DNA of 64,000 nt from Microbotryum violaceum. Its lineage: Eukaryota. The notes beneath the pieces are model-generated. The model was not told the DNA's origin, ran no database searches, and was given only the letters and a program-made list of their open reading frames with translations. A program made the position numbers and the translations under genes. Of the stretch, positions 3,978 through 64,000 are shown piece after piece. The stretch covers positions 248,001 through 312,000 of the forward strand of contig CDLV01000011.1 of NCBI GenBank assembly GCA_001244265.2, given 5' to 3'. Position 1 is the stretch's first letter. The number at the start of each line of letters is the position of its first letter.

Positions 3978-4423
3978 AAGCACCATCACTAAAATCCCCC
4001 GCAGCGAAGCTAGGCCCCGACTTCGACAAGCAAGTTTTCGGCACCCTCCGCCAGTGCAAGTTGCCGCTCTTCGTAGAATCCAGTCCACCGATACTTTCCG
4101 TATCCAGTCCACCAATACTTTCCGGTCTACATCTTTATTTTTTCCTTCGCCCGCGACCGAACTTTTCCCTCGCTGACTCTGAAACCCCTATTATTTCCTT
4201 TGGCCGTGCCTCGGGACATTCGCTCATCATTTCGTCTCACCGATCCTTTCTTGATCTTTCACACTCACGCTTTTGTCGTAAAGGGCTTCCTAGCGCGTGC
4301 TGATGCAAGTTGATCTTGATCCACTCTATCATTATTTCATCTAATAGCTCAATGACAGCATACATTTATCTATGCCTAGAAATCTTTGGCGAGATCGGAG
4401 GAGATGCATTTAGGCACATCGGC

Positions 4424-10538: not shown

Positions 10539-10991
10539 GACACCAAAGGGGGTTTTAGTGGGTATGGTTGATCCTGGTTCAGGGTCAATGAGTCCTACAC
10601 TACTGGCTTCTGCCAATGTGCGTAGCAGCATTCCCTCCGACTTTTCCGAAGATTTCTAGGTATTAATATAATTATGCTGTTAATGAAGTCTATCAAATAA
10701 ATAAATAAATAAAAAATACCCGACCCGGCGCACGCCGCCGAGAGCGCGTTTTGTAATGAGGAGGATCCGCGAAATAGAAAGAATTGGGACGTGTGCGAAA
10801 TCTGCCGAGGCGCGTTGACGTCCTCCGTTCGCGACTCTTGCTCGCTCCATCCACTTGGCACTCCCTTCTCGCCCTGCGGTCTCTTTAAGCGCGATCTTGA
10901 CTCTTTCTTCTGGTCCTGCACGTCGCTATCTCTTTCTCTCCGACTCGGTTCGTCGCCCAACAGATCTATTCCCCCACGCGACTCGTCAAGC

Positions 10992-36294: not shown

Positions 36295-37499
36295 CTGTTG
36301 TAGATAATGTATACAAGGGTCAGCACACTGCGCATGAGCCAAGGGAGGGGTTGCGTCGTCGGATGTCGAGCTCGATGACGTTGGCTGGGCCGGGGCGGGA
36401 TGGCGGCTCCGCACATGACAGCGCGCTCGCCTGCGATGTGTCGTCCGTCCGTCGCGATGCCACCTCGAACCCTTTCATCGGCCCTCTTGTCCACCAGCCG
36501 TCTCGAACAAGGTCCTTCCAACAACCACCTTGAATGCTCCCGACCGTAGTCAGGCATCCGTCACCGTCATTAATGCTGCGAGGCCCACCCGCGCGGGCCC
36601 CAAATTGTGCGGGAAAAAAGTCGAGTGCTGAGCCGAACGCGGCGGTAGGCCCGCAGTTGCGGCTGCTGGGTCGTGGCAGACAAGTCGTCGGTCCGCCTCC
36701 TCGTAGTACCATGTCGAGGGTCGAGGTGACGCAGTCGAGGAACGTATCCTTGAGTGGTTTAAGAGAATGTCCGACTAACCGATATCTGCTTTTACGCTTA
36801 AACTCTTGACGAGGGAAGTCGATGTGGAGAGCGAGAACAAGCAAGCCTACGACAAGCCAGCAAAGGCGCGAGCAGCCCCGCCGCGCTTTTCGTCGCAGGT
36901 TTTTTTCGCCTCGCGCAGGCGGGTTTGGCCCGCGTTTTGTACGTTCGAGACGGACTAATGGGAATTGTGCGTGGGATTACTGTAGACGTGCTTTGAGCTA
37001 GGGATATCATAAAAACTGGCGTTTGCACTTTCGATCAAGCTGGAGAAGGAGACAATTTAGCTATTGCTAATTTTCAGGAATATTTTGGCTCATCCTACCG
37101 TTTGCATGACATGCTTGCTAGCCAAGCAGGTTGAGCAAGAACGAGGCCCGGAGCCTGAAGGAGCACGGGCCTCTTCGAGCCTCGGCCACAAGCGAACACG
37201 CGCTGCAGGTCGGTTCGGTCAGCCTCAGCCGCATTTGCTCGAGTCGTGCGACCCGAGCTCCAGTGAGAACTGCTGCGCGGTGGAACGACACGTTGTTCAT
37301 TCCATCCGATCATCACCTCTACTTGCACCAAAACGCGCTCGAGCGACGAGCGTAGTGGCAGTGACCCTCTGTGAGACACGCGTCGCCAACTCCCACCAAG
37401 TCACGGGGTGGGGGTCGAACGCGGGAGCAATCAATCGAAACCGCCACACGTCGTCCCACCCCGCTTTTCAAGCCTTATCGCCCCTTCGTCGTCTTCGCC

Positions 37500-40415
37500 A
37501 TGTCAAACACATGGGACAATGTCTCGCAGGATGATGATCTGTCTTTCTCTATGAATGCGAGTTTGATCGAGATGCGACAAGGTGGGACCGAGACGCCTTC
37601 GGAGACGGGCTCCATGTCGTCGTCGTCGACGTCGTCCTCCACTAGCACCACGACCTTGGCCAGCAACGTTGCCAGCGTCCGAGCGTCTACGGCCGATCTC
37701 CTCGTGGAAGCGTCGATCAAGGACCCTCTGCGCTTGTCCATCAGTAGCATTGGTTCGTCTTCTTCGGTTGCGACTCCTTCGTCCTCCGCTTCAAGGCGGT
37801 CCCCACTGTCCGAGAGCATGGTACAGCTCGGCTTCGAGGGCGCCGCGCCTGACACTAGCACCACCAGCCTCACCGGCGATCGAGATCACGCCGACCGAGG
37901 CACCGAGTCATCCATCATCGAATCCTCGCAGTCACCCATCGAAGCTCGCTCGAGGGATCAAGACATTACCCCGTTGGTATCGATGAATGTGAATGATGAT
38001 GACCCATTCAACACGACACTGTCCCCTTCTGCGACGCGCGCCCCTGACGAACATTTGCCGGCCTCGGCAAGCTCGGCTCTCTCGACCCACCCCGACCACG
38101 TCCCGGACTCCATGAGGACGTCTTACCCCTTGGCGCAAGAGCTCTTGCATCGACACCATCGACCACAGGCGAGTGCCGCGATGAGCGACGGCGACGATAC
38201 AACGAGCATTGCAAGTACGAACGGCAGCCTCAATAGCGAGTTCGAGCACCTCGGCGGGGCGCACATGCTCGTCATGCCTTCGATGCGACTCTCGGGACCC
38301 CACAGCGCTACGACGTACGGTTCGAGCGAGTCGATCGTCTCGGCCTATCGCTCGAACGAGCATGATGAAGCGGGGAGGATCACCTCGCATGCTCTGTCCT
38401 CCCACGATCGCCACCAAGCGACGAAGCTGCTCATTCTCGGCAAATCGGTCGAACATCGCGCCGCGTTGGCGAGGCTGCTGGGGATGGCCTCTCTTCCGAC
38501 CGCACACAACACCGCCAGTCATACACCTCAACGAACGGATTCGCAAGTCGACTCGATGGTGAGCTCGTTTTGGTCCATCCGAACATCCGAGCACGGGCGC
38601 GCGCACACGAGATCGTCGACGCGTCAAAGCCATCCCTGGGCCTGCGATCTCGACACGCTCGAAGCTCTGCCCCACCGATCCCAGTTTTGCAAGTTTTCCC
38701 ACCCTTCGAGCGACGACAACATGCGTGAGCTCGTCGAGAACGTCGCGCGGTCGATTACGATCTCGTTGGAAGGTGTGGAGGCTTTGATCAATCCGACGCA
38801 GGTTCGGAGCGAGGAATTGGTCGAACTCGTGATGCGCATCGGGACGAGTCATTTCGAGGCGTGTTTGGTGTTGTTTTCTTCCCGTGAGTTATCGGAGACA
38901 TGTGCGATAGTAGACTTTATCTGGTGGCCCGGACCTGACGGCGAGCATTTCCTACAAATAGCCCCTAACTCGGCCGAGATCGCACTCGCGCGAATCGTCG
39001 CTCAAGTCATCCCGGTGTTCCCAATTCTGGTCCTCCCACCAGCACCCGTACCCACGAAACCCTTGAAGACGACCGCGCTCGTTGAAGCCGTCGTCGCACA
39101 ACTTGACTCGGCCGGAGTAAGATGGACCGCTGCGCTGGACCATCAAATCGGTGGCATTGTGCGTGGCCGAGCTACTGCCAAGCGTGGGCCATCGCCGCTC
39201 TACCTTTTGCCGCACGAGCTCTTCACGGAAAAGGCGTCCCAGGATCTGAACGCACCCGCTTCTGCGACCCATGGAACTGCACCACCTTCGCCGACCTTCA
39301 CAGCAACAAGTTCGAATGGATCAGCACCGGACGGATCTTCTTCGTCGGGCTCCCGCTCGTCTTCACCTGCGACTATGACGGCTGATTTGGCTAGGTTGAG
39401 GACGCTCGTCGGGACGGCGGGTATGCGCGATCGAATTCGCCGGGCCAATGCACTTGCTTTCCTCGATTGGAGGGAGATTGAAATCGCGGCCCTAGGGGAC
39501 ACCAAAGCCGTTTCCCCTGTATCTGACGATGATGTGGGCCAAGACGCTGGTTCCACTCTAGATACGCCAAGTAGTGAGACTGGGACCCCTCCGAGTCGTC
39601 AAGATGTCAAGGCTCGTCGAGATAGCCTCGAGTTCTCGCGTCGCGTCGCCGAACGAAGAATGCACCTCACGTCAACCGCTAAACGAGGAGTAACGGGAAC
39701 CAGACCGTCGCCGATCTGGGCAGATTTGGGGGTCAGCTCGGAGGTGCTCGCAGCGTGTGGAACAAGTTCGAACGAGGATGTCACGCCGTGTGACCCGATG
39801 TCGGGTTCGGTCTCGTCGCTCGGTTCGTCCAGTGAGGGAGCTGCACAAGCGCTGGCGAGCAGGAGCGCCCTCGAGCCCGATACGCCAAAGTGTATTTCGA
39901 GGTCTCTACCCGCTTTCACTTCGCCCACAGTGGGTACGCTGGATCCGGGTCACACTGCGTCACCACAAGCTGCGCCTTCTGGGCACCCTGCAAACCCCGC
40001 TCGAGCGAGGGCTAATACTGGCGCCTCGAGGACGAATGCATATGTTTCGGATCAACTTCCCTCGCCGTTCGATCCGTTCCACCTACCCGCCTTGCTGCAT
40101 CTCGTCGGACTCAACCTACGTCTCTCGTTGATACCATGGCCAATGCAAGCCGCTCAACTCTCGTCCGAAGACGTGGAGAAGCAAGGCTCGTCACCCGCTC
40201 GGCACCCTCACTCCCACGGTTTTCCCTCATCCGCCTCCCTAGGCGTTCGAAGTTGGATGAGCACGGCCGTCATCGTCGGCGCCGTATTCCTCGCCGGTTT
40301 CCTCTGCGGCATGGGCGTCTCGACCCCTCTCGCCAGCGCGAGGGTGCTCTCCCTTGGTATAACGGGTCCCATCGGTTCACCGCCGACGATTCGAGATGCC
40401 TGCCGTAGCTTCTAG
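37500..40415 (+). CDS. Ser-rich hypothetical protein with degenerate septin-like region and C-terminal TM helix
   Basis: ~1000-codon ORF with a probable in-frame intron (~38884-38960). KLLILGKS, ACLVLFSS, EIALARIVAQVIPVFPIL, DPFHLP motifs; hydrophobic AVIVGAVFLAGFLCGMGV. Confidence 0.7.
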   Translation: MSNTWDNVSQDDDLSFSMNASLIEMRQGGTETPSETGSMSSSSTSSSTSTTTLASNVASVRASTADLLVEASIKDPLRLSISSIGSSSSVATPSSSASRRSPLSESMVQLGFEGAAPDTSTTSLTGDRDHADRGTESSIIESSQSPIEARSRDQDITPLVSMNVNDDDPFNTTLSPSATRAPDEHLPASASSALSTHPDHVPDSMRTSYPLAQELLHRHHRPQASAAMSDGDDTTSIASTNGSLNSEFEHLGGAHMLVMPSMRLSGPHSATTYGSSESIVSAYRSNEHDEAGRITSHALSSHDRHQATKLLILGKSVEHRAALARLLGMASLPTAHNTASHTPQRTDSQVDSMVSSFWSIRTSEHGRAHTRSSTRQSHPWACDLDTLEALPHRSQFCKFSHPSSDDNMRELVENVARSITISLEGVEALINPTQVRSEELVELVMRIGTSHFEACLVLFSSRELSETCAIVDFIWWPGPDGEHFLQIAPNSAEIALARIVAQVIPVFPILVLPPAPVPTKPLKTTALVEAVVAQLDSAGVRWTAALDHQIGGIVRGRATAKRGPSPLYLLPHELFTEKASQDLNAPASATHGTAPPSPTFTATSSNGSAPDGSSSSGSRSSSPATMTADLARLRTLVGTAGMRDRIRRANALAFLDWREIEIAALGDTKAVSPVSDDDVGQDAGSTLDTPSSETGTPPSRQDVKARRDSLEFSRRVAERRMHLTSTAKRGVTGTRPSPIWADLGVSSEVLAACGTSSNEDVTPCDPMSGSVSSLGSSSEGAAQALASRSALEPDTPKCISRSLPAFTSPTVGTLDPGHTASPQAAPSGHPANPARARANTGASRTNAYVSDQLPSPFDPFHLPALLHLVGLNLRLSLIPWPMQAAQLSSEDVEKQGSSPARHPHSHGFPSSASLGVRSWMSTAVIVGAVFLAGFLCGMGVSTPLASARVLSLGITGPIGSPPTIRDACRSF

Positions 40416-42491: not shown

Positions 42492-42774
42492 CCTCAATGT
42501 CTTGGTTCGGTGGGGTGACCATCGCGTTGGCAGGTGTGTGCCAATCTTTCAAAAGCAAAGCGCAGGGCAGCATGACTAACTGACCGGTTGGACCGTAACA
42601 TCACAGGGGATCCGAAGCAATGCCTTCCCGTCACCCTCAACGGCTCGGTTCGGTGGAGTGACCGTCGTGTTGGCAGGTGTGTGCCAATCTTCAAAAAGCA
42701 AAGCGCAGGGCAGCATGATTAACTGACCGGTTGGACTGTAACATCACAGGGGATTCGAAGCAATGCCTTCCCGT
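42492..42774 (+). repeat. 143-bp tandem duplication containing an intron-like segment
   Basis: Units start at 42492 and 42635; each contains CAG|GTGTGT...AACTGAC...CACAG. Confidence 0.88.
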
Positions 42775-48866: not shown

Positions 48867-49239
48867 CCAGCGTTCCGGGTTGATCATCTCTGTTCGTACG
48901 CGACGCACTTTCCAAGCAAAGGTATGCCAAGTCTTCCCAGTCATTTGCAGTAATCCTGGATACTGATAGGAAACGCGCTTTCCAAGCAAAGCCGTTCCAT
49001 TTTCTGAGCTCCTCCCACCCACCCCAAAAAGGGAAACCAACAAGGAAGTCATCATTTTGAAGTCATTTTTTTGTTGTCTTTGGGTGGGCGGGAGGAGCTC
49101 AGAGAATGGAACGGCTTTGCTTGGAAAGCGCGGTTCCTATCAGTATCTAGGATTACTGCAAATGACTGGGAAGACTTGGCATACCTTTGCTTGGAAAGTG
49201 CGTCGCGTACGAACAGAGAGAATCGACCCGGAACGCTGG
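48867..49239. mobile_element. Foldback/MITE-like element with ~158-bp inverted arms
   Basis: CCAGCGTTCCGGG...(to ~49024) is the near-perfect reverse complement of ~49082-49239, with a ~57-bp spacer. No TSD seen. Confidence 0.8.
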
Positions 49240-53000: not shown

Positions 53001-56000
53001 TCAAATCTTTTGTTTCTTCGTCGGACCCCCCGCCGACGCCTTGTCCCCCGTCCTCTTTTTATTCATTTCCGCCTTGGCCTTGGCCAACCCTCCTCTCCAC
53101 ATCTTTTGCAATTCCAACCCACTCTGGTACACCTGATGCTCGGGACTGGCATTGAATCTGAAGCAATTGTACAGCATCAACTCGACGTCCGCGTCGACCT
53201 CGTCGATCGACGCGTAACGATCCTTTTCGACGTTGGCTTTGATCGTGCCTAGATCACGTTGAGTACCAGGTGTGATGATGCTGTAATAGGTCGGGATTTG
53301 ATCGATGATGGTGTTCACTGATTCGCGGAAAGGCCACGAAGCCCCCTCCTTGAGGATTTTGTTCAACAACGCGAGGATCGACCTTCGTTCGTGGTACGAC
53401 ATGCGACTCGCCTTCTCCCATTCGGCGCTCCATGCGCGTTGGATCATCAGCACGTGCCATACGGGTTCGGTGTTGGGTGGGTTGAATTGTTGGCAGTTTG
53501 CGACGATGCGGTCAAAGTCGGCGAACACGTCGGCGTACGTCGCGTAGCTGCCGTGGTCGAGTTTGGCCTCCATCGTCTGCAGATCCATCGGCTCGCTGAT
53601 CTCTTGATAGTAACTGTCCACGAGAGTCAAACTACATTAGCACTCGCAGCTTGCTCCCCCCTCAACCCCCCCGCCCGCTTCACGTTGACTTACACAGGCA
53701 AAGCAACCGGATCCACCGGTTTGAGGAACCAAAACGCCTCCCTCATACCCTTGATCTTCGCCATCACCTGCCTAACCTTCTTCGGATCGACCCGATCATT
53801 GGGATTGATCCAAGTCGAAGGGGGCGGCAACTTGGGTTCATCCAAGACGGGAGGTCGAAGAGGGGCGGTTGGGTAGGCTTCGGTCACTGCTACGGGACCT
53901 CGTGCGGAGGGAGGTTCGATGACGTCGTCGGGTGGATCGGCGTAGTTGACTTCTTTACGCTTCTTCTTCTCCTTAAAAGGGCGGGGAACGTCCTCCACAC
54001 CCGCGGCGGCATCCCCATTACTCCCTACACTCCGTGAAGACTGCTTCGAAGTCGACCCTGCCGCTCCATAGGTCGCGTCATCCGTTGTCGTGCGTGACAT
54101 CTTCGGTGCCTTGAGCGGTTTAGGAGCTTTAGGTGGTTTGGGAGTAGTCACGGGTGAAACTGTCGGTCCACCAGGGGCAGCCGTGAGAGGTGCAGCGGCC
54201 CCGTTTGGTGCCGTCGGTGTCGTAGCAGCTCCACCAAACTTGATCTTGAACCCGAGCGAGGGAGTCGGTAGGGCAGGGGAAGCCGCTCCACGATTTTGCT
54301 TCTGCGCCGCCGGCGCAAGAGGAGGCGGAGTCGCTCGTACAGGAGGGGTAGCCACGGCAGTCGGAGCAGGAGCAGGCGCCCGAGGCTTGATCTTGAACGA
54401 CAAGCCCGTCGATAAAGGAACAGTAGGTGTCGGTGCAAATTCGTCCGCCGGCAACTCGGCAGGTGGTGGTGGTGGTGGAGGTGGAGGCAGCGGGTTCGTC
54501 GCCAATTTCAACACGGGCGGCCTCATCTCCGACGCCTTCTTCGAAGTGGTCGTCGTCGTCGATGCCGAAGCAACGGGTTCCACCATTTGAGCTGCAGGAA
54601 CCGCCGGAGTCGGCACTTCCATCATCTTGAGCGTCGCCTCGATCCGATCCCATTGCTTATCGAAAAACGCATCGAGCTTCCTCGCCAAATCGACGACGAC
54701 ACCCTGGACGTTATACAAGATCGCATTCGAGATGATGAGTTTGAAGTCCGCTCGGAAGGCGTACCGATCGGCATAATCCCCATTGTTGAGCTTGGCACTG
54801 AGGGTCGATACGTCCATGGGATGATGAACGATATCCCAATACCCCGGAGCACCAGATTTGACGGGATCTACCGGGTGTTGGAACAACGTGACGTGCTTGT
54901 CCTTGAGCAACTTCTTGACCATGCTCTTGCACGCCGTGAAATCGCTGTGCGACATCCCGGAGGCCTGAGCATGCTCGAGCTTGGGCGGTGCTTTGACTTT
55001 GGTCTTTTTCGGCTTGACCGTCGTCGGAACAGGGACGGGGATCTCCAAAGGAGCCGGGTTCTCGGCCGCGGGCGGTGCGGCCGTCGAGCCGCCCAACTTG
55101 ATCCTGGGTAACGAAGCAGTCTGCGTATTCGTCAGCTTGAGTCGAGGCGTCGTGGCCGATACAGGCGCCGCCACAGGTGACTCGGCAACGACGGGCATCC
55201 TGAACGTGATCTTCGGCAAGGGTTCCCCCTCGGGTCGGATCGTCACTTCGGCGAGCTTGAGCATACAATCCCTCACTTCGGGATCGATATCGGGATGCGT
55301 CAACGTCTGCAACAAGCACTGCCGGAAGTTGTTCGAACGACCGGGTTTCTTGCGTAGAGCTTTCAGCGTACTTTGGATCGAGTCACCCTTCTTTGTCGAA
55401 CCCGCGCCGAACTCTTCCAGTCCCGTCTCGGGCGCAGCCCCGAGATCTTTCGTGACGGCGAGGAAGGGGAGGATCTCGACGAGGGCTTGGGCGAGACGTC
55501 GTTGAACGAGGCGGGACGAATCGTCGCGCAAGACGGCAAAGAGGTACTGCACGAGCGGGATCGATTCTTGCATGTCTTGGAAAGGGTTGAGCAAGAGCAA
55601 TGCCTCGAAAGCCGCGATTCGGACCGGCGGGTAGTTCCCATCTCTGCAACAAACGAGATCACACCGTTATAACAACAGCACCTTCGGTCCTGAAGCAAGG
55701 AGCCCAAGGACGCACCGTGTATAAATGAAGAACGACATGCGATCCTCGGGCAACAGCGACGCCATCATCAACCTCAACTTGAACTCGATACCCGCGACTG
55801 TGATCGCATTCTGGAACGAGGGGACCAACCGATCCGTACTGAGGTACCTTTCGACCGCTGCCAGTGCCGGTTCGAGCGCCTCGAGACTCGACGCTTCGTC
55901 ACCGAACGTGCCTTCGTCGGCACCAAATATCCCTAGGTCGCGTTTGAGGGGTGTTCCAGCGAACGAGTACCCCAATGCGTTGATGATGGAAACGATGTAG

Positions 56001-58922
56001 AAGGCGTCCGAGAGCCGATTACCAAGGTTATCGTTGTAGGCCAACAGATCAATAAGGAACTGATGCACCACTGCGGGTGTTTGTCCCTGTTCGTCCCTGG
56101 CCATCGAGATGGCCTGAATCAGCGCCTTCTTGAGAAAGTAGAGGGACATGTCTGAGAAATCGTTCGTCTTGGGGATACAACGAAACGCGAACGGATCCTT
56201 CGTCTCTGCCGCAGGCTCGAAGCAAAACCACGATTGGAACAACTTGAACAGGTGAAAGAGACCCAAGTAATCGGCTCGGTTCGTCGCACACGAGACCAAC
56301 GCCAGCGCCGCTTCCATCCGGATGCGAATAAAGTAATTCCCCACGAGGACAGTCTTGCACAAATTGCTTGAAACCACCGTGTCGTGAATTGCCGGTTTTT
56401 CCGGATTCCGATGGACGGAAGCGCACATATGGGACAGTGCATGGATCGCCTCAAGTTGAGCAACGACGTCCCGATCACGTTGGAGTTGCGAGATCCACAT
56501 GAAGTCGGGTTGTTCAAATTGGATGCGCGCGATCCAGTCCATCTCGGCGTCAATGCGGATCCATTCGTACGTCGCCTGACTCATCAATACGTCGTCCTCT
56601 TCCGTCCAATCAGCAACTTGCCACCTCTCTCGTTCTACCTCTTCCTCCCACAACGTTGAGCCGAACCCCACATCGATCAAAGCCACGTCCTCAGCCGCTT
56701 CGAGATCGCCCGCAGCAGCGGCTTGCGCAGCTGCCTGCCGAGCCTGGTACCGCTTCGTATTACGTCGAATACGCTTGTACTTTGTATTGAACGGCACCTC
56801 GTGCCTCTTGAACGATTCGCTGATCGAAAGCACATGCTCATAAGGTGTCCCATCGGCTTCGTGGATCCGGATCGTCATCTGTCCTTCGAAACAAGCGACA
56901 GGTCGAAGATGGCCCGTCTCTTCCCAGGGCGCGGACTGGGCCCAGAGGTGCGCCAGACATTCTTGCTTGATGCTCAATTCGATCGCCATGCGTTTACGAT
57001 TGAACACGGCCGAAACGACGAACGTCGGACACCCCGAAGCATAGACCCATTGATCGAAAAAGTTTCGGATCGCATCAGCTGAACCGCCGCACGCTTTGCG
57101 ACACATGCGTTGGAAGGTCGTCGTCGACAGAGCATTGTAGTTGCCCGTCGAGGTCGTGCTCGTATCGCCCGTGATGGCATCCAGAAAGATCTTGGGCAAG
57201 ACCTTGTCCAAGCCGAGCGACGTGCCGGCGTTGCGCAGGAACTTGTCAAAGATGTACAGCACGAGCGGGGCTTTGAGCGCGATGAACTGCAACTGAGCCG
57301 GTTCGGGTTGCGCTAAGCGGGCGGGGACCGAGAGTGGCTCCCGTTGGACGTCCTGTGCGACGCAGCGGATCATGTCCTTTTTCAACCGGAACCGATACTC
57401 GTTGTTGCCCCACACCTCGCGCAGGAACAGGGACGTGATGTGTTGCGCGATCCCGATGACGAGCCAGACGTCCGAGGCGGTCCGAGCGATCAAGTTGATC
57501 CCTGACCACTGGACGGCAAGAGCATGCGCCAACGTGTGCCGCGTTTCAAACGCCTGATCGATGATGCTCGCCGGGTGCAACATGTCGGAACTGAGGATCG
57601 TCAACCCGGCCGAGTGGAACGTCGGCGAACCCGAGCTCAGCGCATCGACGAACGCGACGGTGTAGTTGGTGAAAGGATAAGACCCAAACTTGGACGTGTA
57701 AAAGTCCATCGCGCGCCGGACGATTCCAACACAGTTCGCCATCTCGGCCTCCCGACCGGGCAAACACAGCGCATGCAGTTTGGCCCCATCATGCGAGGCC
57801 AGAGGATCCTCCTCTTCCTCTGCACCCTCATCATCTTCCCCTTCTGCCGCAGCGGCATTCGCGGCATTCTCCTTGGGCGTCGGAGCAATTTCGGCGACAA
57901 CGAAGGGTCCGACGGCCCAGGCGATCTGCTGCACGCTGACGGGTGTGACTTGGGCATAGTGCCAAATGACGCGATCACTCCGTTCGGGATGGACGACCTG
58001 TTCGACCAGTTCACCCGAAGCGACGACCGAGACGGGCCATTCGACTTCTTCCTCGTCGTCGAGGTCGATCGCTTCTGGCCCGTACTGGCCGTCGACGTCG
58101 GTCGGTCGGGAGAGCGTCGAGGCCGAAGCCGAGTAGAGCACGCGCGGGACGATGAATTCGAGATCCCAGGTGCATCGATCCTTGGCGTGGTCCAAGCAAG
58201 GAACCCAATGTCGTGCCGAAATTTCGGAAAGCGTCGACGTAAAGACGTGGGGGAAGCGCTGGCGAAGAAGGCGGAGAGCAGCACCACGGTTAGCTGGTCC
58301 AGCTCAATCAACGAGACTCGTCCCTGCTCACCGAGGGATTCGTCTCATCCGGAGCGACGACCACGATCCCCGCCCCAGGTGATACGACCTCGTATTCAAT
58401 GACCAATACGACCGGTTCCCACTCGTCCTGCTTCTTGGCCTGATTCGCTTCGTCATGGTGACTCGCAGGATGAAGCTTGACGACCGAACCCTGAGGGATC
58501 GCAATACCGACCTCTCCTTCCTCGCCTTCGTTCGTCGATCGCCATACGGCTCGTTTCAGTTCGGGGTAGGTGTGGACGTTGTGAGGCTCGGTCAGAGTCG
58601 GGGCGAGAGGGGGGATGTAGGAGAACGCGAGAGGGACGGTCGTGGTCGGGAGACGCAGCGCCGTCGCGAGCACGTTCATTGACCGAGCGTGGAGCCATAC
58701 CGTACGCAGATCCGCGGTCGTAGGGGCGATCGTGAGTTCAGTATTACCCTGTTGAGAAGGGGAGAGTGTGTGCCGAATGCATCAGTCCTGCTGACTCGAG
58801 AGCTCGGCCGCTCGGCGGGAGGTGGACCACCAAGTCCGGTACAGAGCACTCACATGGATCTTGCCGTTCAGCGCGACATTGATGGACACTTTTTGACTGA
58901 GCAACGTAAATCCTTTGCCCAT
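53001..58922 (-). CDS. TAF2: TFIID subunit 2 (aminopeptidase-like fold) with three C-terminal bromodomains
   Basis: CTWDLEF, FGSYPF, QWSG, WVYASGCP, MTIRIHEADGTPYEH, EWIRIDAEMDWI, QLQRDRDVVAQLEA; bromodomain motifs FQHPVDP..PMD..N, FLKPVDP..PMDL..N, FRESV..DL..N. Start approximate. Confidence 0.95.
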
Positions 58923-60298
58923 GATGACCTATGTCCAACCTCCTGTTGTTCCTGGCAACCTCCTCGCGACAGACACGCGATGGGCAGGGAGGAGCTCGAG
59001 GTGGGTGGGTGGTGGGGACGAGAAAGCAAGCAAATCAATACTTCTTTCGGGGTCTTCCTCTTGGGCGTGGGCGTGGCAAAGTCGCCACTTGGTCGCTGGG
59101 TCGGTTAAGCACGCTGCGCGATCGAACGCGCGATGAGAGGGAGAGCCGCACCCCGCTCGCTGACTTGCGCTTCACGATGAATGGGCCGTTCCCGCGCGCA
59201 CGGACCCAATCCGGCCTGAAGCACGCCTACTTTTCCGGACGCCGACACGTCGACACGCCGACACGCCCAAATCGGCGATACGAAAAGCCCAATCGCGCAG
59301 ACGATCAAAGTTCGTCACGTCTGTCCTCCTCTAGCACGTACTACGGTGCGCGTCTGGTCGGACCGAGTTGTATTTGCCGTCGGACTGGAGCGAGTGGTCC
59401 GCTGGGCTGCTTCACCACCCCGGCCTCCTCCTCCCTCCTGGGCAATCCGAGGCTGAGGCTGCTTTTCGCGCGAACGATCAAGCGATTTGTTTTTGTAGGA
59501 ACTGTTCATCAGATTTCGCCCATTTTCTGTTCCCTCCTGATTGGCCTACGGAAGAACTAGATGGAAGTCGACGATGATAACACAAACCGCCCGCAAGATG
59601 CGAGAAACGGGCCAAGTCCATCGATCCGATACTTTGGATTCAAGTGCCCCAGCCAAGCGGTTTCTCCCACCCAGGAGACGAATGAGAGAGAGAAGGAGAG
59701 AGAGACAGAAAAATAAAAACAACAAGCGTGCTAACGACAAGAGGCCCACCTCACCGCCACCTCCCAACTCGGTCGAGACGAAGACAGGAGAGCGACTGCG
59801 CAGCTACCCCGACCCGCGAAGTCTCAAGTCTATGCTCGATCACAAAAAGACGCGGTGGAGGCCCCTCAAAACCTCCACCTCAGGTTTTTGAACCTCCAAA
59901 AAACATGAAGATCCGTACGAGCTTCACTACTCCACATGCGCCCGGGACTTGCGACTTGAATTTGCAAACGGAGGGATTCGACAGACTGACCCCGCAAACA
60001 GAGCAAGAAGCCCCTGTGATTTTCACCATGCGCCGGACTATTTCTTCTACAAGCGCTAACGAAAAGCATGGTACAGATCAAATCCTCTTCTTTTCGTCTC
60101 TCTGGACGCTCTTTTTCGCAATTTGACGAAAGCCTTTCCCTCGCTCCCCCCGAGATGCCTTGGTTTTGTGCCCCCCCCCCCCCCCCTTTTTTTTTCTTTC
60201 GGTGTGTGTGTGTTTGTTTTCTGGGTATGGGGTTGGTGCGCGCGCTGATCGAGCCCGAAGGCCACGGGTTATCTGTCTGTCGGGCCAGGTGTCTCGTG

Positions 60299-60975
60299 CT
60301 ACTGGCGCTGTCGTTTGCTGGGCTCGGGCGGCGAGCACTCTCGGATCTCGAGCTCGTCCTCGTCAGAATCGCTCAAAAGTTCAAGGATCGGTCCCGACGG
60401 GCCGTGGGCACTGGTGCTCGTCGTCGCCGCGTTCCCGGGCAAAGTCACTTCGGCACGCCGAGAGTACCCGTCGAGGGTGCGGGCAGTGTCGAGGTACAGC
60501 TCGACGTACTATCTGCGCTCGACGTTGAAGCCCGCCCCCCCCTGGGCGTGCTCCGAAGAGTCCCCTTCGCGCTGGCGGGCCTCGCGAGGAGCAGGCACGG
60601 GGACGAGCAGCGGGTTGGGGTCTCGAGGCAGGTGCAGCAGGGTGTTGAGGAACGCTCCCGAGTCTTGCGCATTGGGCTTCCAGAGCTCGCGGTCGCGGGG
60701 GAGCGTCGACTCCAGCGTGCCCTGCTTCACGAACGAGCTCTTGCGTCGGCTGTCGCAGACGTACACCTCGGGGTCGGGGTCATCGTCCGCGTCCCCGACC
60801 GTAAAGCTTGCCGTCCAGACTTTGCCCTCGGTCGGGTCGAGCGCAAAGTCGAGGGTGCGAATTCGAGCCGGTACGAGCAAATCGTGCCCATTGCGAGCCG
60901 GTTTTGCTTCGACGTGGTGGCGATGCGGCACTGGCAGTGCGGGGCAAGGGTACGGTAGGGGGGCGGCCAGGCACC
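60299..60975 (-). pseudogene. Orphan terminal exon of an unknown gene, disrupted
   Basis: Coding-like frame with an internal TAG at 60509-60511 that reads on to ...LELLSDSDEDELEIRECSPPEPSKRQRQ*. CTGAC branch point and pyrimidine tract end in CGG instead of CAG; no upstream exons before the repeat array. Confidence 0.5.
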
Positions 60976-61008
60976 GGAAGACAGAAAAAAGCGTCAGTCG
61001 GTCAAAGG

Positions 61009-61575
61009 GTATACAATACTTTTGGTTTCTCGTAGGGATCGTCATGCTTTTCGTAGGTCCAAATCGCGACTCATCTATCGCTCCTTCATCCTTTGCTGGC
61101 GCTTAGACCGCTCGGCCATATCTCCCCTCGAGTGTGTACAGTCTGTTTTCAGTTGCTCGTACGGATAGCGATCTTTTGGCAGTCCTGTTCAAACAGGAAC
61201 AAAATCTTTCATTCAGCTGCGTTCCCTCCATCCTTCGCTGCGCCTTAGACCGCTCGGCCATATCTCCCCTCGAGTGTGTACAGTCTGTTTGCAGTTGCTC
61301 GTACGGATAGCCATCTTTGGGCAGTCGTGTTCGAACACGAACAAAACCGTTCATTCAGCTGCGTTCCCTCATCCTTCGATGCGCCATATCTCCGGTGGAG
61401 TATATACACTACTTTTCGTTTCTCGTAGGGATCGTCATGCTTTTCGTAGGTCCAAATCGCGACTCATCTATCGCTCCTTCATCCTTCGCTGCGCCTTAGA
61501 CCGCTCGGCCATATCTCCCTCGGAGTATATACATTACTCTTCGTTTATCGTAAGAATTGTCATGCTTTTCGGGGG
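61009..61575 (-). repeat. Tandem array of units headed by tRNA-Leu 5'-half sequence
   Basis: 39-nt repeat at 61087-61125, 61229-61267, 61480-61518 and a 15-nt-deleted copy at 61370-61393. Minus strand reads GGAGATATGGCCGAGCGGTCTAAGGCGCAGCG. Two spacer types in order A,B,B,A,A(partial). Confidence 0.88.
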
Positions 61576-64000
61576 GGACCAACTACGCTTGAGGGTCCGC
61601 AAGGAACGCCGCATCGGATTGTCCGTCCGCCGCCGCCACTGCCGTTCTCGTTCTCGTTCCCGTTCCCGTTCCCGCGTTCGCTCCGGTCCGGGCAGGCTCG
61701 GTCAACGCAACCCACCCACTACTCGGACTGGTGTGAGTTGCAGTCAATAGCTGCTACGAGTGGAGTGGTGTAGGTGCCTAGCCATGCAGGGGGGGGCAAG
61801 TCGGCCACACCCTCACCTTGCACATACCACTCGTAACTGCTATCGAAGATATCGGGACTCTCTTCAAGGCGCTGGCGGATGGCGCATCGAGCTTAAGGTG
61901 GTGAGTGACCGACTTGGGGCACAGGTGGTGGATTTCGATCGCTGTCTGGTCGGCCAAATCGCGACAGGCCTGGGCGTACGAGTCCGGTCCCACGCTCGTG
62001 ACGTTGTACTGACCTGTCAATACGTCGTTTAAACGCAGGCACGATCATGGAAATCGGACCCACATTGTACTCCCCCCCATCCCAACCCTTGTCCGATCCG
62101 ATCTCGGGTCTGTGCGACACGCTCGAGGCGATCGAGGAGCAACGGTTCAACCTCGCGACGTCACTCGACCCATCCGAGTCCAACCTCGAAAAGCTACGCG
62201 ACGCAGTTCTGAATGTTTCGGACGTAGGGTCTCCGTCTCGTTCAGAGTCCCCATTCAGCAATTCTATCATACTCTCCGGATACCTCGCCAAACGGCCCGA
62301 CATAGTGCGAGGTTCGGCGTCGCTCACCGCTTTGGGGCCACAATACGTTTCCTTGACCGACAAGACCATGTGGACGGCCATGGGCGAGATATCGTCGACT
62401 CGGCCCTCGATTCCACTTGTCTACCTTCGGGGTTTTCCTGCTATTGTTAGAGAGCACCTCGAGTACTCGCTCGTGTTCGAGAATAAGTTCCCGGGTTCCG
62501 CTTTGGAAGAGAGGCTCTTCCGCAAGCGCCTCGAAGGACTTGACCTCGACCTCGTCGTAAGCCGCTTCTACGTGGGCTGGACGACACGCGATGTGATCTT
62601 ACGAGCCCAAGAAGATCAAGAATTGATCAAAAAGGACGAACTGGGCACCCAGTTCGGTAACTACATTTCGTCGATCGGTCGAGGCCGCGTAAACGACTTC
62701 AACATCTTCATTCTCAACCTTCCCTCGACAACGATTCATCGATCTCAAGCGCGCCAACTCACGGAACAGTTCGAGGCCTTCTTCATCGCACTTCTCGGGC
62801 ATGCAAGCCTGAACTCGGCTTCTGGGGGAACGACGACGAGATGGACGGCGGACAACGGCCTCTTCCGCTGGCGTGACATCATCTCTGCCCCACTCGTTGC
62901 GCAGGCGCAAGTAGAGGTCATCGAGGCCGCGGACTCACTCGCAGAAGAATCATGGCCCCTCACGCAAGCCGATCGAGATACCGCCAACCGTCGTGCGAGC
63001 CACGAGTTCGAGACCGCCGTTCGTAACCACTTCCAGGACTTCAAAGAATACTTTGAAAATAAACGCATCGCTCTCGTCGACCCTCAGAACGTGCAAATCA
63101 CGCCGGCTTACTTCGAGCAGTTAGTCCTTGCAGCGTGCGCGGTGCCGTTCAACCGCTTTGGGCAGATCATCACCATGAACGTGTTCGAGGTGCCACCCGC
63201 GAGCGAGTTCAACGGCGTGACCCGTTTTTTTTGGCGATGATCCTGGTGCTATGCGCGAGTGGTCGAGCGACATCGATCTCCGAATGGAGCGAGGTGTCGG
63301 AGAGTATGATAGAATTGCTGAATGGGGACTCTGAACGAGACGGAGACCCTACGTCCGAAACATTCAGAACTGCGTCGCGTAGCTTTTCGAGGTTGGACTC
63401 GGATGGGTCGAGTGACGTCGCGAGGTTGAACCGTTGCTCCTCGATCGCCTCGAGCGTGTCGCACAGACCCGAGATCGGATCGGACAAGGGTTGGGATGGG
63501 GGGGAGTACAATGTGGGTCCGATTTCCATGATCGTGCCTGCGTTTAAACGACGTATTGACAGGTCAGTACAACGTCACGAGCGTGGGACCGGACTCGTAC
63601 GCCCAGGCCTGTCGCGATTTGGCCGACCAGACAGCGATCGAAATCCACCACCTGTGCCCCAAGTCGGTCACTCACCACCTTAAGCTCGATGCGCCATCCG
63701 CCAGCGCCTTGAAGAGAGTCCCGATATCTTCGATAGCAGTTACGAGTGGTATGTGCAAGGTGAGGGTGTGGCCGACTTGCCCCCCCCTGCATGGCTAGGC
63801 ACCTACACCACTCCACTCGTAGCAGCTATTGACTGCAACTCACACCAGTCCGAGTAGTGGGTGGGTTGCGTTGACCGAGCCTGCCCGGACCGGAGCGAAC
63901 GCGGGAACGGGAACGGGAACGAGAACGAGAACGGCAGTGGCGGCGGCGGACGGACAATCCGATGCGGCGTTCCTTGCGGACCCTCAAGCGTAGTTGGTCC
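61576..64000. repeat. Long inverted repeat: arms 61576-62278 and 63298-64000 (>=703 bp, runs off the window), 1019-bp spacer
   Basis: Identical ORFs appear on opposite strands in the ORF track; paired end coordinates sum to the same value (125576), so there is no net indel. Confidence 0.95.
62047..63240 (+). CDS. GIY-YIG-like endonuclease domain protein, probably 3'-truncated
   Basis: Ordered motifs LVYLR...FYVGWT...R..ED...EAFFIALLG..LNSASGG match the GIY-YIG Y/YxG/R/E/N pattern. Possible upstream exon via intron ~61901-62038. Confidence 0.6.
   Translation: MEIGPTLYSPPSQPLSDPISGLCDTLEAIEEQRFNLATSLDPSESNLEKLRDAVLNVSDVGSPSRSESPFSNSIILSGYLAKRPDIVRGSASLTALGPQYVSLTDKTMWTAMGEISSTRPSIPLVYLRGFPAIVREHLEYSLVFENKFPGSALEERLFRKRLEGLDLDLVVSRFYVGWTTRDVILRAQEDQELIKKDELGTQFGNYISSIGRGRVNDFNIFILNLPSTTIHRSQARQLTEQFEAFFIALLGHASLNSASGGTTTRWTADNGLFRWRDIISAPLVAQAQVEVIEAADSLAEESWPLTQADRDTANRRASHEFETAVRNHFQDFKEYFENKRIALVDPQNVQITPAYFEQLVLAACAVPFNRFGQIITMNVFEVPPASEFNGVTRFFWR

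What the first reader, a model, noticed from the sequence alone, without database searches (positions are those of the whole stretch)
61009..63297. tRNA-Leu-headed repeat array directly linked to a GIY-YIG-like nuclease gene
Seen: four copies of a 39-nt repeat spaced by 86-103 nt. Its minus strand matches tRNA-Leu positions ~1-31 (acceptor 5' strand, A-box TGGCCGAGCGG, TCTAAGGCG) but has no tRNA 3' half. The last spacer grades into the inverted-repeat arm that carries the start of a divergently oriented GIY-YIG-like ORF. Established: this D-arm is typical of eukaryotic tRNA-Leu and contains a Pol III A-box; GIY-YIG domains serve homing and Penelope-type mobility; some transposons (Dada) target tRNA genes. 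Inference: a mobile nuclease module that either expresses Pol III or tRNA-mimic small RNAs from the array, or accumulates tRNA-Leu target-site halves. I do not recognise this pairing as a described system.
Basis: partly seen in the sequence, partly recalled or inferred. Interest (0 to 1): 0.85.

Follow-up and report, generated by a model that had tools for sequence, protein, structure and literature searches.

The report
Broken fungal nuclease beside tRNA fragments
In an anther-smut fungus, a broken gene for a previously unnamed kind of DNA-cutting enzyme lies back to back with four tandem leftovers of the front end of a tRNA gene, most likely scars of local duplications, though the enzyme may once have caused them.

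Summary
Mostly real, more broken than described. Microbotryum locus. Four minus-strand repeats start at tRNA position 1 and carry a Leu-type D-arm, but copy 2 lacks 16 nt including the A-box. The spacers are two related types (A,B,B,A), so this is a 125-142-bp tandem repeat, not a repeat-spacer array. B units hold a T-arm-like hairpin. The ORF has a GIY-YIG fold (I-TevI, Z 7.2) with Y/Y/G/R/E/N invariant in 7 of 7 aligned members of an unnamed family (named members are Microbotryomycetes). It is low-copy here, frameshifted at a T8 run and cut off by a recent fold-back inverted duplication with 7-nt microhomology. The array's apparent grading into the arm is a window-edge effect. No RT, transposase, array transcript or second array-plus-ORF locus was shown, and co-occurrence could not be tested. 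Best reading (0.45): duplication scars at a tRNA-Leu hot spot beside a dead selfish nuclease. Rival (0.3): a SegB-like nuclease that cut tRNA genes and made them. The scan earlier noted similar GIY-YIG/tRNA-fragment cassettes in bacteria (unchecked notes).

The parts
61480..61518 (-). Head 1: tRNA positions 1-28 (acceptor 5' strand, A-box, D-arm) plus 11-nt shared linker
   Evidence: (22.2 bits)
61394..61479 (-). Spacer type A (unit 1)
61371..61393 (-). Head 2, with a 16-nt deletion removing A-box and D-arm
61268..61370 (-). Spacer type B (unit 2) with T-arm-like / palindromic hairpin at 61325-61340 and a B-box-like motif at 61336
61229..61267 (-). Head 3, intact
   Evidence: (28.3 bits)
61126..61228 (-). 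Spacer type B (unit 3); same hairpin with one compensated pair change and a degenerate loop
61087..61125 (-). Head 4, 3 substitutions in the first 28 nt; best echo of a Leu(AAG) anticodon arm
   Evidence: (13.8 bits)
61010..61086 (-). Spacer type A (unit 4), ending at the left junction of the array
61519..61576 (-). Partial A-type spacer in front of head 1
   Evidence: (D3)
61639..62046 (+). Probable 5' leader of the nuclease gene (extra 408 nt of gene model MVLG_06516), with a 6-bp microsatellite at 61642-61674
   Evidence: supplement rows mapped by offset (inference)
62047..63240 (+). Broken GIY-YIG gene; nuclease domain about residues 123-263 (nt ~62413-62835); stop follows a T8 run at 63225-63232; the homologous frame continues to ~63295
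61576..62288 (.). Left arm of the inverted duplication as far as the window shows it (true outer end lies inside the array)
63289..63297 (.). Fold-back junction; 7-nt microhomology with the opposite strand near 62280-62288
   Evidence: contig 62249-63327
63298..64000 (-). Right arm, 703 of 703 nt identical to the left arm; holds codons 1-77+ of the ORF; runs off the window
60302..60970 (-). Single-copy coding relic of unknown gene with an in-frame stop (old model MVLG_06515 covers part); cut at its 5' side by the array
59886..60130 (+). Older, degenerate piece of the array unit in opposite orientation plus tail; a second diverged genomic copy is joined to a B-like unit
   Evidence: 0 of 500 shuffles; joint 59929/61261
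59536..59884 (.). Unrelated high-copy repeat (about 100-fold depth) between the TAF2 gene and the locus

Best explanation
A rearranged graveyard at a tRNA-Leu site. A free-standing GIY-YIG endonuclease gene of an unnamed, patchy Microbotryomycete family came to lie back to back with a tRNA-Leu gene (shown: fold, family, geometry; inferred: selfish origin, intact tRNA beyond the window). One unit made of a tRNA front end plus decayed remainder or flank was duplicated in tandem, diverged into types A and B and was reshuffled by unequal exchange (shown: homology and A,B,B,A order; inferred: mechanism). Recently a break or stalled fork inside the gene folded back on a 7-nt microhomology about 1 kb away and copied promoter and array into a perfect inverted repeat, truncating the gene; a 1-nt frameshift also stops it (shown: junction, identity, stop; inferred: mechanism). 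The array is a scar, not a working partner of the nuclease, and the nuclease is a neighbour of the tRNA site more than the maker of the array.
For: Tandem homology of all units. Decay of heads 2 and 4 and a still older relic at 59886. ORF region at the depth of unique flank in 3 of 3 DNA runs: 59.9 vs 58.5, 36.7 vs 37.5, 30.1 vs 28.4; arm 104, 84, 41 (depth is a rough guide only). The 1079-nt loop contig has 0 gaps in 3 of 3 DNA runs, so the T8 run and early stop are not a long-read error; the older 454 record reads through. Microhomology at the junction. Relatives are 552-1218 aa and share sequence beyond the point where this copy ends. All 3 other Microbotryum records look damaged too: two fused to a copia gag stretch (Pfam E 8e-6 for P0003), one 137-aa fragment. 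The neighbourhood holds other debris, and earlier scan notes report LINE stacks 49-71 bp upstream of many tRNA genes in this genome, one starting 246 letters past this window (unchecked).
Against: The first 39-43 nt of an A unit and a B unit are nearly identical while the rest has diverged strongly; neutral decay does not predict that without gene conversion from a real tRNA gene or selection. The B hairpin shows a compensated pair change. The catalytic set is intact in this copy, and the old gene model has a 408-nt leader that probably rests on RNA-seq (inference). A diverged third array piece exists at about single-copy depth. GIY-YIG genes are enriched beside tRNA genes in phages (PMC13096335 section 10), so adjacency may not be chance. 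The intact tRNA beyond the window was not seen.
Confidence: 0.45

Rival explanations
1. Relic of a tRNA-gene-directed selfish nuclease: a nuclear, SegB-like free-standing GIY-YIG gene that cuts in or near tRNA-Leu genes (or at the unit's hairpin). Each cut-and-repair cycle duplicated 'upstream flank + tRNA front end' between the gene and the surviving tRNA, refreshing the heads, and a late cut caused the fold-back that killed the gene.
For: Homing-endonuclease-type fold: I-TevI top at Z 7.2, rmsd 3.1, 88 of 92 residues; 23 of 26 named rows among 50 BFVD rows are endonucleases, 13 named GIY-YIG (none at E<=0.001). Identical heads on diverged spacers. SegB drives segmental amplification that includes tRNA genes (abstract of PMC13096335). 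Patchy multi-copy family: 3 paralogues in one yeast genome at 46-66% identity.
Against: One locus only; no genomic context for any homologue. In X1 the 64 nt before head 3 (61291-61332) show one identical copy plus the diverged one, not two, so an identical spacer after the LINE stack is not supported; X10 has double depth there and X14 single. Homing needs an empty allele in a dikaryon or diploid and was not tested. The His of the R/H/E/N set (PMC8557442 passage) is Asp in this family. The 64-bp match has a fair chance of coincidence if LINEs always land 49-71 bp upstream of such heads.
Confidence: 0.3
2. Fragment of a Penelope-like or other retro/transposable element with an N-terminal GIY-YIG domain, the tandem and inverted repeats being pseudo-LTR-type structures.
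For: PLEs of the Naiad/Chlamys clade have an N-terminal GIY-YIG and complex tandem/inverted insertions (PMC8557442 passages). Array-like sequence occurs on both sides of a minus-strand coding relic.
Against: No RT or transposase family in any of 9 relatives scanned, up to 1218 aa, nor in 15+9+2 window frames. No CCHH motif inside the GIY-YIG core. The inverted arm duplicates the 5' end and promoter, not the 3' end. No hammerhead hit (one core-like string at 59512 outside the locus). Low copy.
Confidence: 0.12
3. One reading: the array is transcribed by Pol III into tRNA-mimic small RNAs that guide or regulate the nuclease.
For: A-box exact in 2 of 4 heads and nearly so in a third; B-box-like hairpin in 2 of 4 units; T4 runs downstream of the heads; divergent layout.
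Against: Only two spacer types; the best B-box-like motif is in the unit that lost its A-box; A units have none; the gene is broken; no RNA-binding domain found; the array is copy-variable between runs.
Confidence: 0.07
4. The inverted repeat or the array is an assembly artefact.
For: Arms are 100% identical over 703 nt.
Against: The same symmetric loop contig (62249-63327) appears in 3 of 3 DNA runs from 3 studies, with raised arm depth; it passes the junction by 39 letters from the start of the microhomology and 30 from its end (just under the tool's 31-letter rule on the stricter count). The older independent 454 scaffold ends at the position that maps to 63298.
Confidence: 0.02

Closest known systems
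SegB and other free-standing GIY-YIG homing endonucleases of T-even phages (PMC13096335: abstract and section 10 read)
   Same: Free-standing GIY-YIG gene within 1 kb of tRNA sequence; local tandem amplification of tRNA-containing DNA; fold matches I-TevI and phage/virus endonucleases.
   Different: Fungal nuclear gene with nuclear codon use (GC3 0.68), 550-1200-aa family with a ~45-residue insert between the two motifs and unknown C-terminal domains; no sequence-level match to phage families; targeting and homing untested; this copy is dead.
Ssn single-domain GIY-YIG ssDNA nucleases with hairpin repeats (PMC11893778: abstract and passages read)
   Same: GIY-YIG gene flanked by short hairpin-bearing repeats.
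   Different: Ssn are small single-domain bacterial proteins with 20-50-nt hairpins, often in hundreds of copies; here a large protein, 2 hairpins in the window, tRNA heads, low copy.
Dada DNA transposons targeting tRNA-Leu (PMC3706591: passages read)
   Same: tRNA-Leu gene fragments beside a mobile-type gene; Dada occurs in a basidiomycete (Laccaria).
   Different: Dada encodes a DDE transposase with CCCC/CCHC fingers, leaves 6-7-bp TSDs, splits the gene into 5' and 3' parts and has no long inverted repeats; none of that is seen.
Naiad/Chlamys Penelope-like elements (PMC8557442: passages read)
   Same: N-terminal GIY-YIG; tandem and inverted repeat structures.
   Different: No RT, no CxC linker or CCHH motif seen; inverted arm copies the 5' end; low copy.
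tRNA-derived SINEs and Helenus TRIMs (PMC10886601: passages read)
   Same: Short units with a tRNA-derived head in which promoter motifs outlast the cloverleaf.
   Different: Not dispersed (array depth about 1-6 times single copy), no LTR pair, PBS, PPT, tail or TSD seen; that paper reports no Helenus in Microbotryum.
Nuclear GIY-YIG pseudogene of mitochondrial origin in Ustilago maydis (PMC7593156: abstract read)
   Same: Dead GIY-YIG gene in a smut fungus nucleus.
   Different: That one is AT-type mitochondrial DNA with a mutated active site; this one has nuclear composition, an intact catalytic set and a nuclear family.

Membership tests
GIY-YIG endonuclease superfamily | GIY-YIG fold | tested here: met
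   Model residues 123-263 (pLDDT about 70-85 over 121-220) match I-TevI catalytic domain at Z 7.2, rmsd 3.1, 88 of 92, next unrelated row 5.2; T4 EndoII Z 4.5; same top hit; BFVD neighbours. Z is in the range the tool calls middling; support comes from agreement of the searches and the residues.
GIY-YIG endonuclease superfamily | Two Tyr motifs plus catalytic R, (H), E, N | tested here: met
   Y126, R128, Y175, G177, R186, D190, E243, N256, S257, G260 invariant in 7 of 7 rows of A3; His position appears to be Asp; P0003/P0008 (not in A3) have Glu for G177. Equivalence to I-TevI residues is inferred from motif order, not from a printed structural alignment.
GIY-YIG endonuclease superfamily | Match to a curated profile | tested here: inconclusive
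   No Pfam or PHROG hit; Atlas GIY-YIG clusters at 0.82-0.86 only.
SegB-like free-standing homing endonuclease | Gene within 1 kb of tRNA sequence | tested here: met
   tRNA fragments about 530 nt from the ATG; an intact tRNA gene was not seen in the window.
SegB-like free-standing homing endonuclease | Association recurs across genomes | not testable with these tools
   No genome held; no loci for relatives in metagenome or viral contigs.
SegB-like free-standing homing endonuclease | Site-specific cleavage and gene conversion of empty alleles | not testable with these tools
   Needs bench work and population genomes.
Penelope-like elements (Naiad/Chlamys) | RT in the same ORF as the GIY-YIG domain | tested here: not met
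   No RT family in 9 relatives up to 1218 aa; this copy is truncated, so the test rests on the relatives.
Penelope-like elements (Naiad/Chlamys) | Pseudo-LTRs formed from element 3' ends; inverted 5'-truncated copy | tested here: inconclusive
   The perfect arm copies the 5' end; an older opposite-strand relic at 59886-60970 could be read as a 3' piece but shows no homology to family C-termini.
Dada transposons | DDE transposase | tested here: not met
   Fold is GIY-YIG; no transposase family passing cut-off.
Dada transposons | Target gene split into 5' and 3' parts with 6-7-bp TSD | tested here: inconclusive
   No 3' part in 54000-64000; DNA beyond 64000 not available.
tRNA-derived SINE / Helenus | A-box and B-box in one unit | tested here: inconclusive
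   Unit 3 has an exact A-box and a degenerate B-box-like hairpin; unit 2 the better B-box-like motif but no A-box; A units none.
tRNA-derived SINE / Helenus | Dispersed multicopy family | tested here: not met
   Array depth about 1-6 times flank, against about 100 times for the neighbouring repeat; heads absent from the rest of the window.
CRISPR-like repeat-spacer array | Unique, unrelated spacers | tested here: not met
   A,B,B,A; types homologous.

The most novel reading that the evidence does not exclude
A nuclear, free-standing GIY-YIG endonuclease family of Microbotryomycete fungi that homes to, or repeatedly cuts at, tRNA genes and leaves tandem 'flank + tRNA front end + hairpin' scars: a eukaryotic counterpart of phage SegB and of the bacterial GIY-YIG/tRNA-fragment cassettes, and possibly a new source of site-specific nucleases working on eukaryotic chromatin.
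Probability: 0.25. Interest if true: 0.78.

Novelty: new variant of a known kind. Interest (0 to 1): 0.42.

Why it matters
As it stands: it puts a fold and an intact catalytic set on an unannotated fungal protein family (11 sequences seen, none with a GIY-YIG profile hit among the 10 scanned) and explains an odd locus. Eukaryotic homing endonucleases are said to be mostly organellar or in nuclear rDNA (abstract of PMC7593156), so a nuclear family tied to tRNA genes would be a new habitat for them. That tie rests on one broken locus and is cheap to test with public Microbotryomycete assemblies. If it fails, the finding is an ordinary rearrangement scar.

Tried and rejected
Whole genome not held, so sequence beyond 64000 and the parent tRNA were never seen. 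ARAGORN: 0 genes in the window; relaxed thresholds gave only inconsistent calls. Rfam 56000-64000 at E<=5: 0 matches. Exact 27-mer in metagenome contigs: 0. Relatives with DNA context: none in metagenome or viral contigs; the alignment query was too divergent to seed. Foldseek against PDB found nothing at E<=0.001; the single-sequence domain model was unusable (pLDDT 34.7) and was not searched. PDB sequence searches gave only E>0.2 rows, including a proteasome ATPase look-alike that I reject. No RNA holder listed; run X20, RNA by guess only, covers parts at depth 3-5 and is not used for or against expression. The lay-reads tables were cut (62 loose ends, 307 pieces and 17 variants not shown), so the continuation of the heads was not visible. 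My first idea that the stop at 63240 is a long-read error was dropped. My idea that the 78 unaligned letters of the diverged 373-nt contig are the tRNA body was dropped, because the alignment stops 7 nt into the head. The bacterial promoter scan is irrelevant to a fungus. The tree of 8 domain slices has 0 of 5 strong branches (P0001, P0004, P0008 left out) and supports no order of events. The coding relic 60302-60970 matched no Pfam family and not the family HMM. Literature: searches (listings only, except the papers named) showed no description of this family or pairing; the library lacks most subscription papers and Repbase, so absence is weak. Supplements of PMC4469406 (24 files searched) give coordinates but no expression value for the gene. 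PMC7290008 had nothing relevant.
Full report
Setting. The window is fungal nuclear DNA: the neighbouring gene is TAF2 with a bromodomain, and the ORF is identical over 395 of 395 residues to the partial model MVLG_06516 of Microbotryum lychnidis-dioicae. No whole genome was held, so everything beyond position 64000 is inferred.

The array. Four heads lie on the minus strand at 61518, 61393, 61267 and 61125. Heads 1 and 3 are identical over 28 nt, head 4 differs at 3 of 28, and head 2 has lost 16 nt including the A-box. To avoid relying on memory I fetched natural tRNAs: a 21-mer of the head hits 33 viral-contig loci, where ARAGORN calls Leu in 24, Ser in 2 and nothing over the motif in 7. A covariance model built from 11 of them finds heads 3, 1 and 4 at 28.3, 22.2 and 13.8 bits, against 8.2 for the next match in 10 kb; the model was built from sequences chosen for this motif, so it locates heads and does not test them independently. 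Leu is the likely isotype and Ser is not excluded. Similarity fades at positions 28-37, with a weak echo of a Leu(AAG) anticodon arm. The spacers come in two types in the order A,B,B,A, 91-92% identical within type and homologous between types (0 of 2000 shuffles). No spacer matches a tRNA 3' half beyond chance (48 tests, best 15 of 300 shuffles). Both B units do contain a five-pair hairpin with a T-loop-like centre and one compensated change (4 and 2 of 3000 shuffles; a post hoc test). It can be read as a decayed T-arm or as a DNA palindrome. A still more decayed piece of the unit lies in the opposite orientation at 59886-59921. So the array is a short, old, reshuffled tandem repeat with unusually well kept heads.

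The protein. Profile libraries are silent. An AlphaFold model from 6 sequences is confident only for residues ~121-220. An unbiased structural search puts the I-TevI catalytic domain first (Z 7.2, rmsd 3.1, 88 of 92 residues), with T4 EndoII at Z 4.5 over the same residues (same top hit); among 50 viral-structure rows, 23 of the 26 with names are endonucleases and 13 are named GIY-YIG, though none reaches E 0.001. Y126, Y175, G177, R186, E243 and N256 are invariant in 7 of 7 aligned members; R, H, E and N are the residues named as catalytic in a passage of PMC8557442, and the His position is Asp here. Searches found 11 sequences in all: this one and its older record, two near-identical M. silenes-dioicae copies at only 39% identity, an M. 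intermedium fragment, four from Microbotryomycete yeasts (three in one genome) and two unnamed. A 39% best match in a congeneric species and several paralogues per genome suggest a patchy birth-and-death or selfish family (inference). None of 9 relatives scanned has an RT or transposase domain; P0003 runs into a copia gag stretch. The word-seeded searches scored only 8000 candidates each, so the family may be wider; the Atlas points to unnamed ascomycete clusters at 0.87-0.92.

The gene is broken. The window has 8 T at 63225-63232 and stops at 63240; the older record reads on for 23 more residues in the frame that aligns with relatives. Short-read contigs from 3 of 3 DNA runs match the window there without gaps, and the older assembly was made by 454/Newbler (PMC4469406 section 22), so the early stop is probably genuine. 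In either frame the gene ends at the inverted arm, while relatives continue to 552-1218 residues.

The inverted repeat. Arms 61576-62278 and 63298-64000 are identical over 703 nt and meet through a 7-nt microhomology. It is not an artefact: one symmetric loop contig, 62249-63327, occurs in all three DNA runs at flank depth, with arm depth 1.8, 2.3 and 1.4 times that, and the published scaffold carrying MVLG_06516 ends at the position that maps to 63298 (supplement rows; offset). The arm's left end at 61576 is only the mirror of the window edge; doubled depth continues into the array. This geometry fits a fold-back template switch (established mechanism, recalled; one search gave listings only). 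The same table gives the model 408 nt more than its coding length, which maps to a start at 61639 and probably reflects an RNA-seq-based leader (inference).

What lies beyond. An earlier scan note describes a LINE stack starting 246 letters past this window and ending 64 bp upstream of a tRNA-Leu gene (unchecked). By arm symmetry, 64 nt upstream of head 3 maps to 64245, and run X1 shows a depth step between 61332 and 61333 (138 to 321) of the size expected at a branch. This suggests that in the right arm the position of head 3 is held by the real tRNA gene, with LINEs inserted in front of it. Against it, X1 shows no second identical copy of the 64 nt before head 3, X10 shows two copies without the step, and X14 one; and other notes put LINEs 49-71 bp upstream of many tRNA genes in this genome, which makes a near match less rare. 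A separate 373-nt contig at single-copy depth joins a diverged B-like unit to a homologue of 59929-60032 in 3 of 3 DNA runs: a third array piece of unknown position.

How it most likely works. Best reading (0.45): a dead free-standing nuclease gene next to a tRNA-Leu site that attracts insertions and rearrangements; the array is a duplication scar, and the inverted repeat a late fold-back. Rival (0.3): the nuclease itself cut at the tRNA gene and each repair duplicated flank plus front end, as SegB amplifies tRNA segments in phage T6 (abstract and section 10 of PMC13096335); the identical heads on diverged spacers are the main fact that favours it. A Penelope-like fragment (0.12), a small-RNA partner array (0.07) and an artefact (0.02) fit worse. 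The remaining probability covers a host gene family with chance adjacency by other routes.

Comparison and novelty. It resembles SegB in layout and fold, Ssn in the hairpins, Dada only in the tRNA isotype; it fails the RT test for PLEs, the DDE test for Dada, the dispersal test for SINEs and the unique-spacer test for CRISPR-like arrays. Searches showed no description of the family or of the pairing, within a library that lacks most subscription papers. The scan has noted GIY-YIG genes with tRNA-fragment and hairpin scars in several bacteria (AI notes, not checked here) and no look-alike of this DNA or protein. I rate it a new variant of a known kind: the family assignment is fairly firm, the tie to tRNA genes rests on one broken locus. 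Interest 0.42; 0.78 if the tRNA-directed reading (probability 0.25) holds.

Noticed in passing
window 59536-59884 (probably from ~59503): High-copy repeat, about 100-fold depth in 3 DNA runs, 600 nt upstream of the TAF2 gene; begins with a TG-like end and may be a solo LTR; no TSD identified. A hammerhead-core-like string with a long spacer starts at 59512 on the minus strand.
   Followed up: partly
window 60302-60970, minus strand: Single-copy coding relic (GC3 0.78-0.79 on both sides of an in-frame stop) preceded by a branch-point-like motif and pyrimidine tract near 60997; no family match; two runs show a 7-nt deletion at 60958.
   Followed up: partly
window 48867-49239: 373-nt imperfect palindrome, 89% self-complementary; looks like a MITE or fold-back element.
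   Followed up: no
window 42492-42774: Two tandem copies of a 143-nt unit, 92% identical; same size class as the array unit but no head match.
   Followed up: no
window 37371-40415, plus strand: 1014-codon open frame with a coding signature and no Pfam match at E<=1.
   Followed up: no
window 4332-4423 and 10612-10704: Weak inverted repeat, 72% over 94 nt, about 6.2 kb apart.
   Followed up: no
proteins P0003 and P0008: Two near-identical M. silenes-dioicae homologues with locus numbers 21 apart, both running into a copia gag-like tail and both with Glu in place of the motif Gly: a recent local duplication there too.
   Followed up: partly
proteins P0005, P0007, P0009-P0011, region after the nuclease domain: A second conserved block (ending in an FFG...GHGP-like motif and a later DFW-like motif) of unknown fold; this locus breaks inside it.
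   Followed up: no
L002, L008, L019, L023, L025: Viral loci with the tRNA-Leu D-arm 21-mer directly before a tRNA-Asn gene but no tRNA called over the motif; possibly truncated or atypical tRNA-Leu copies.
   Followed up: no
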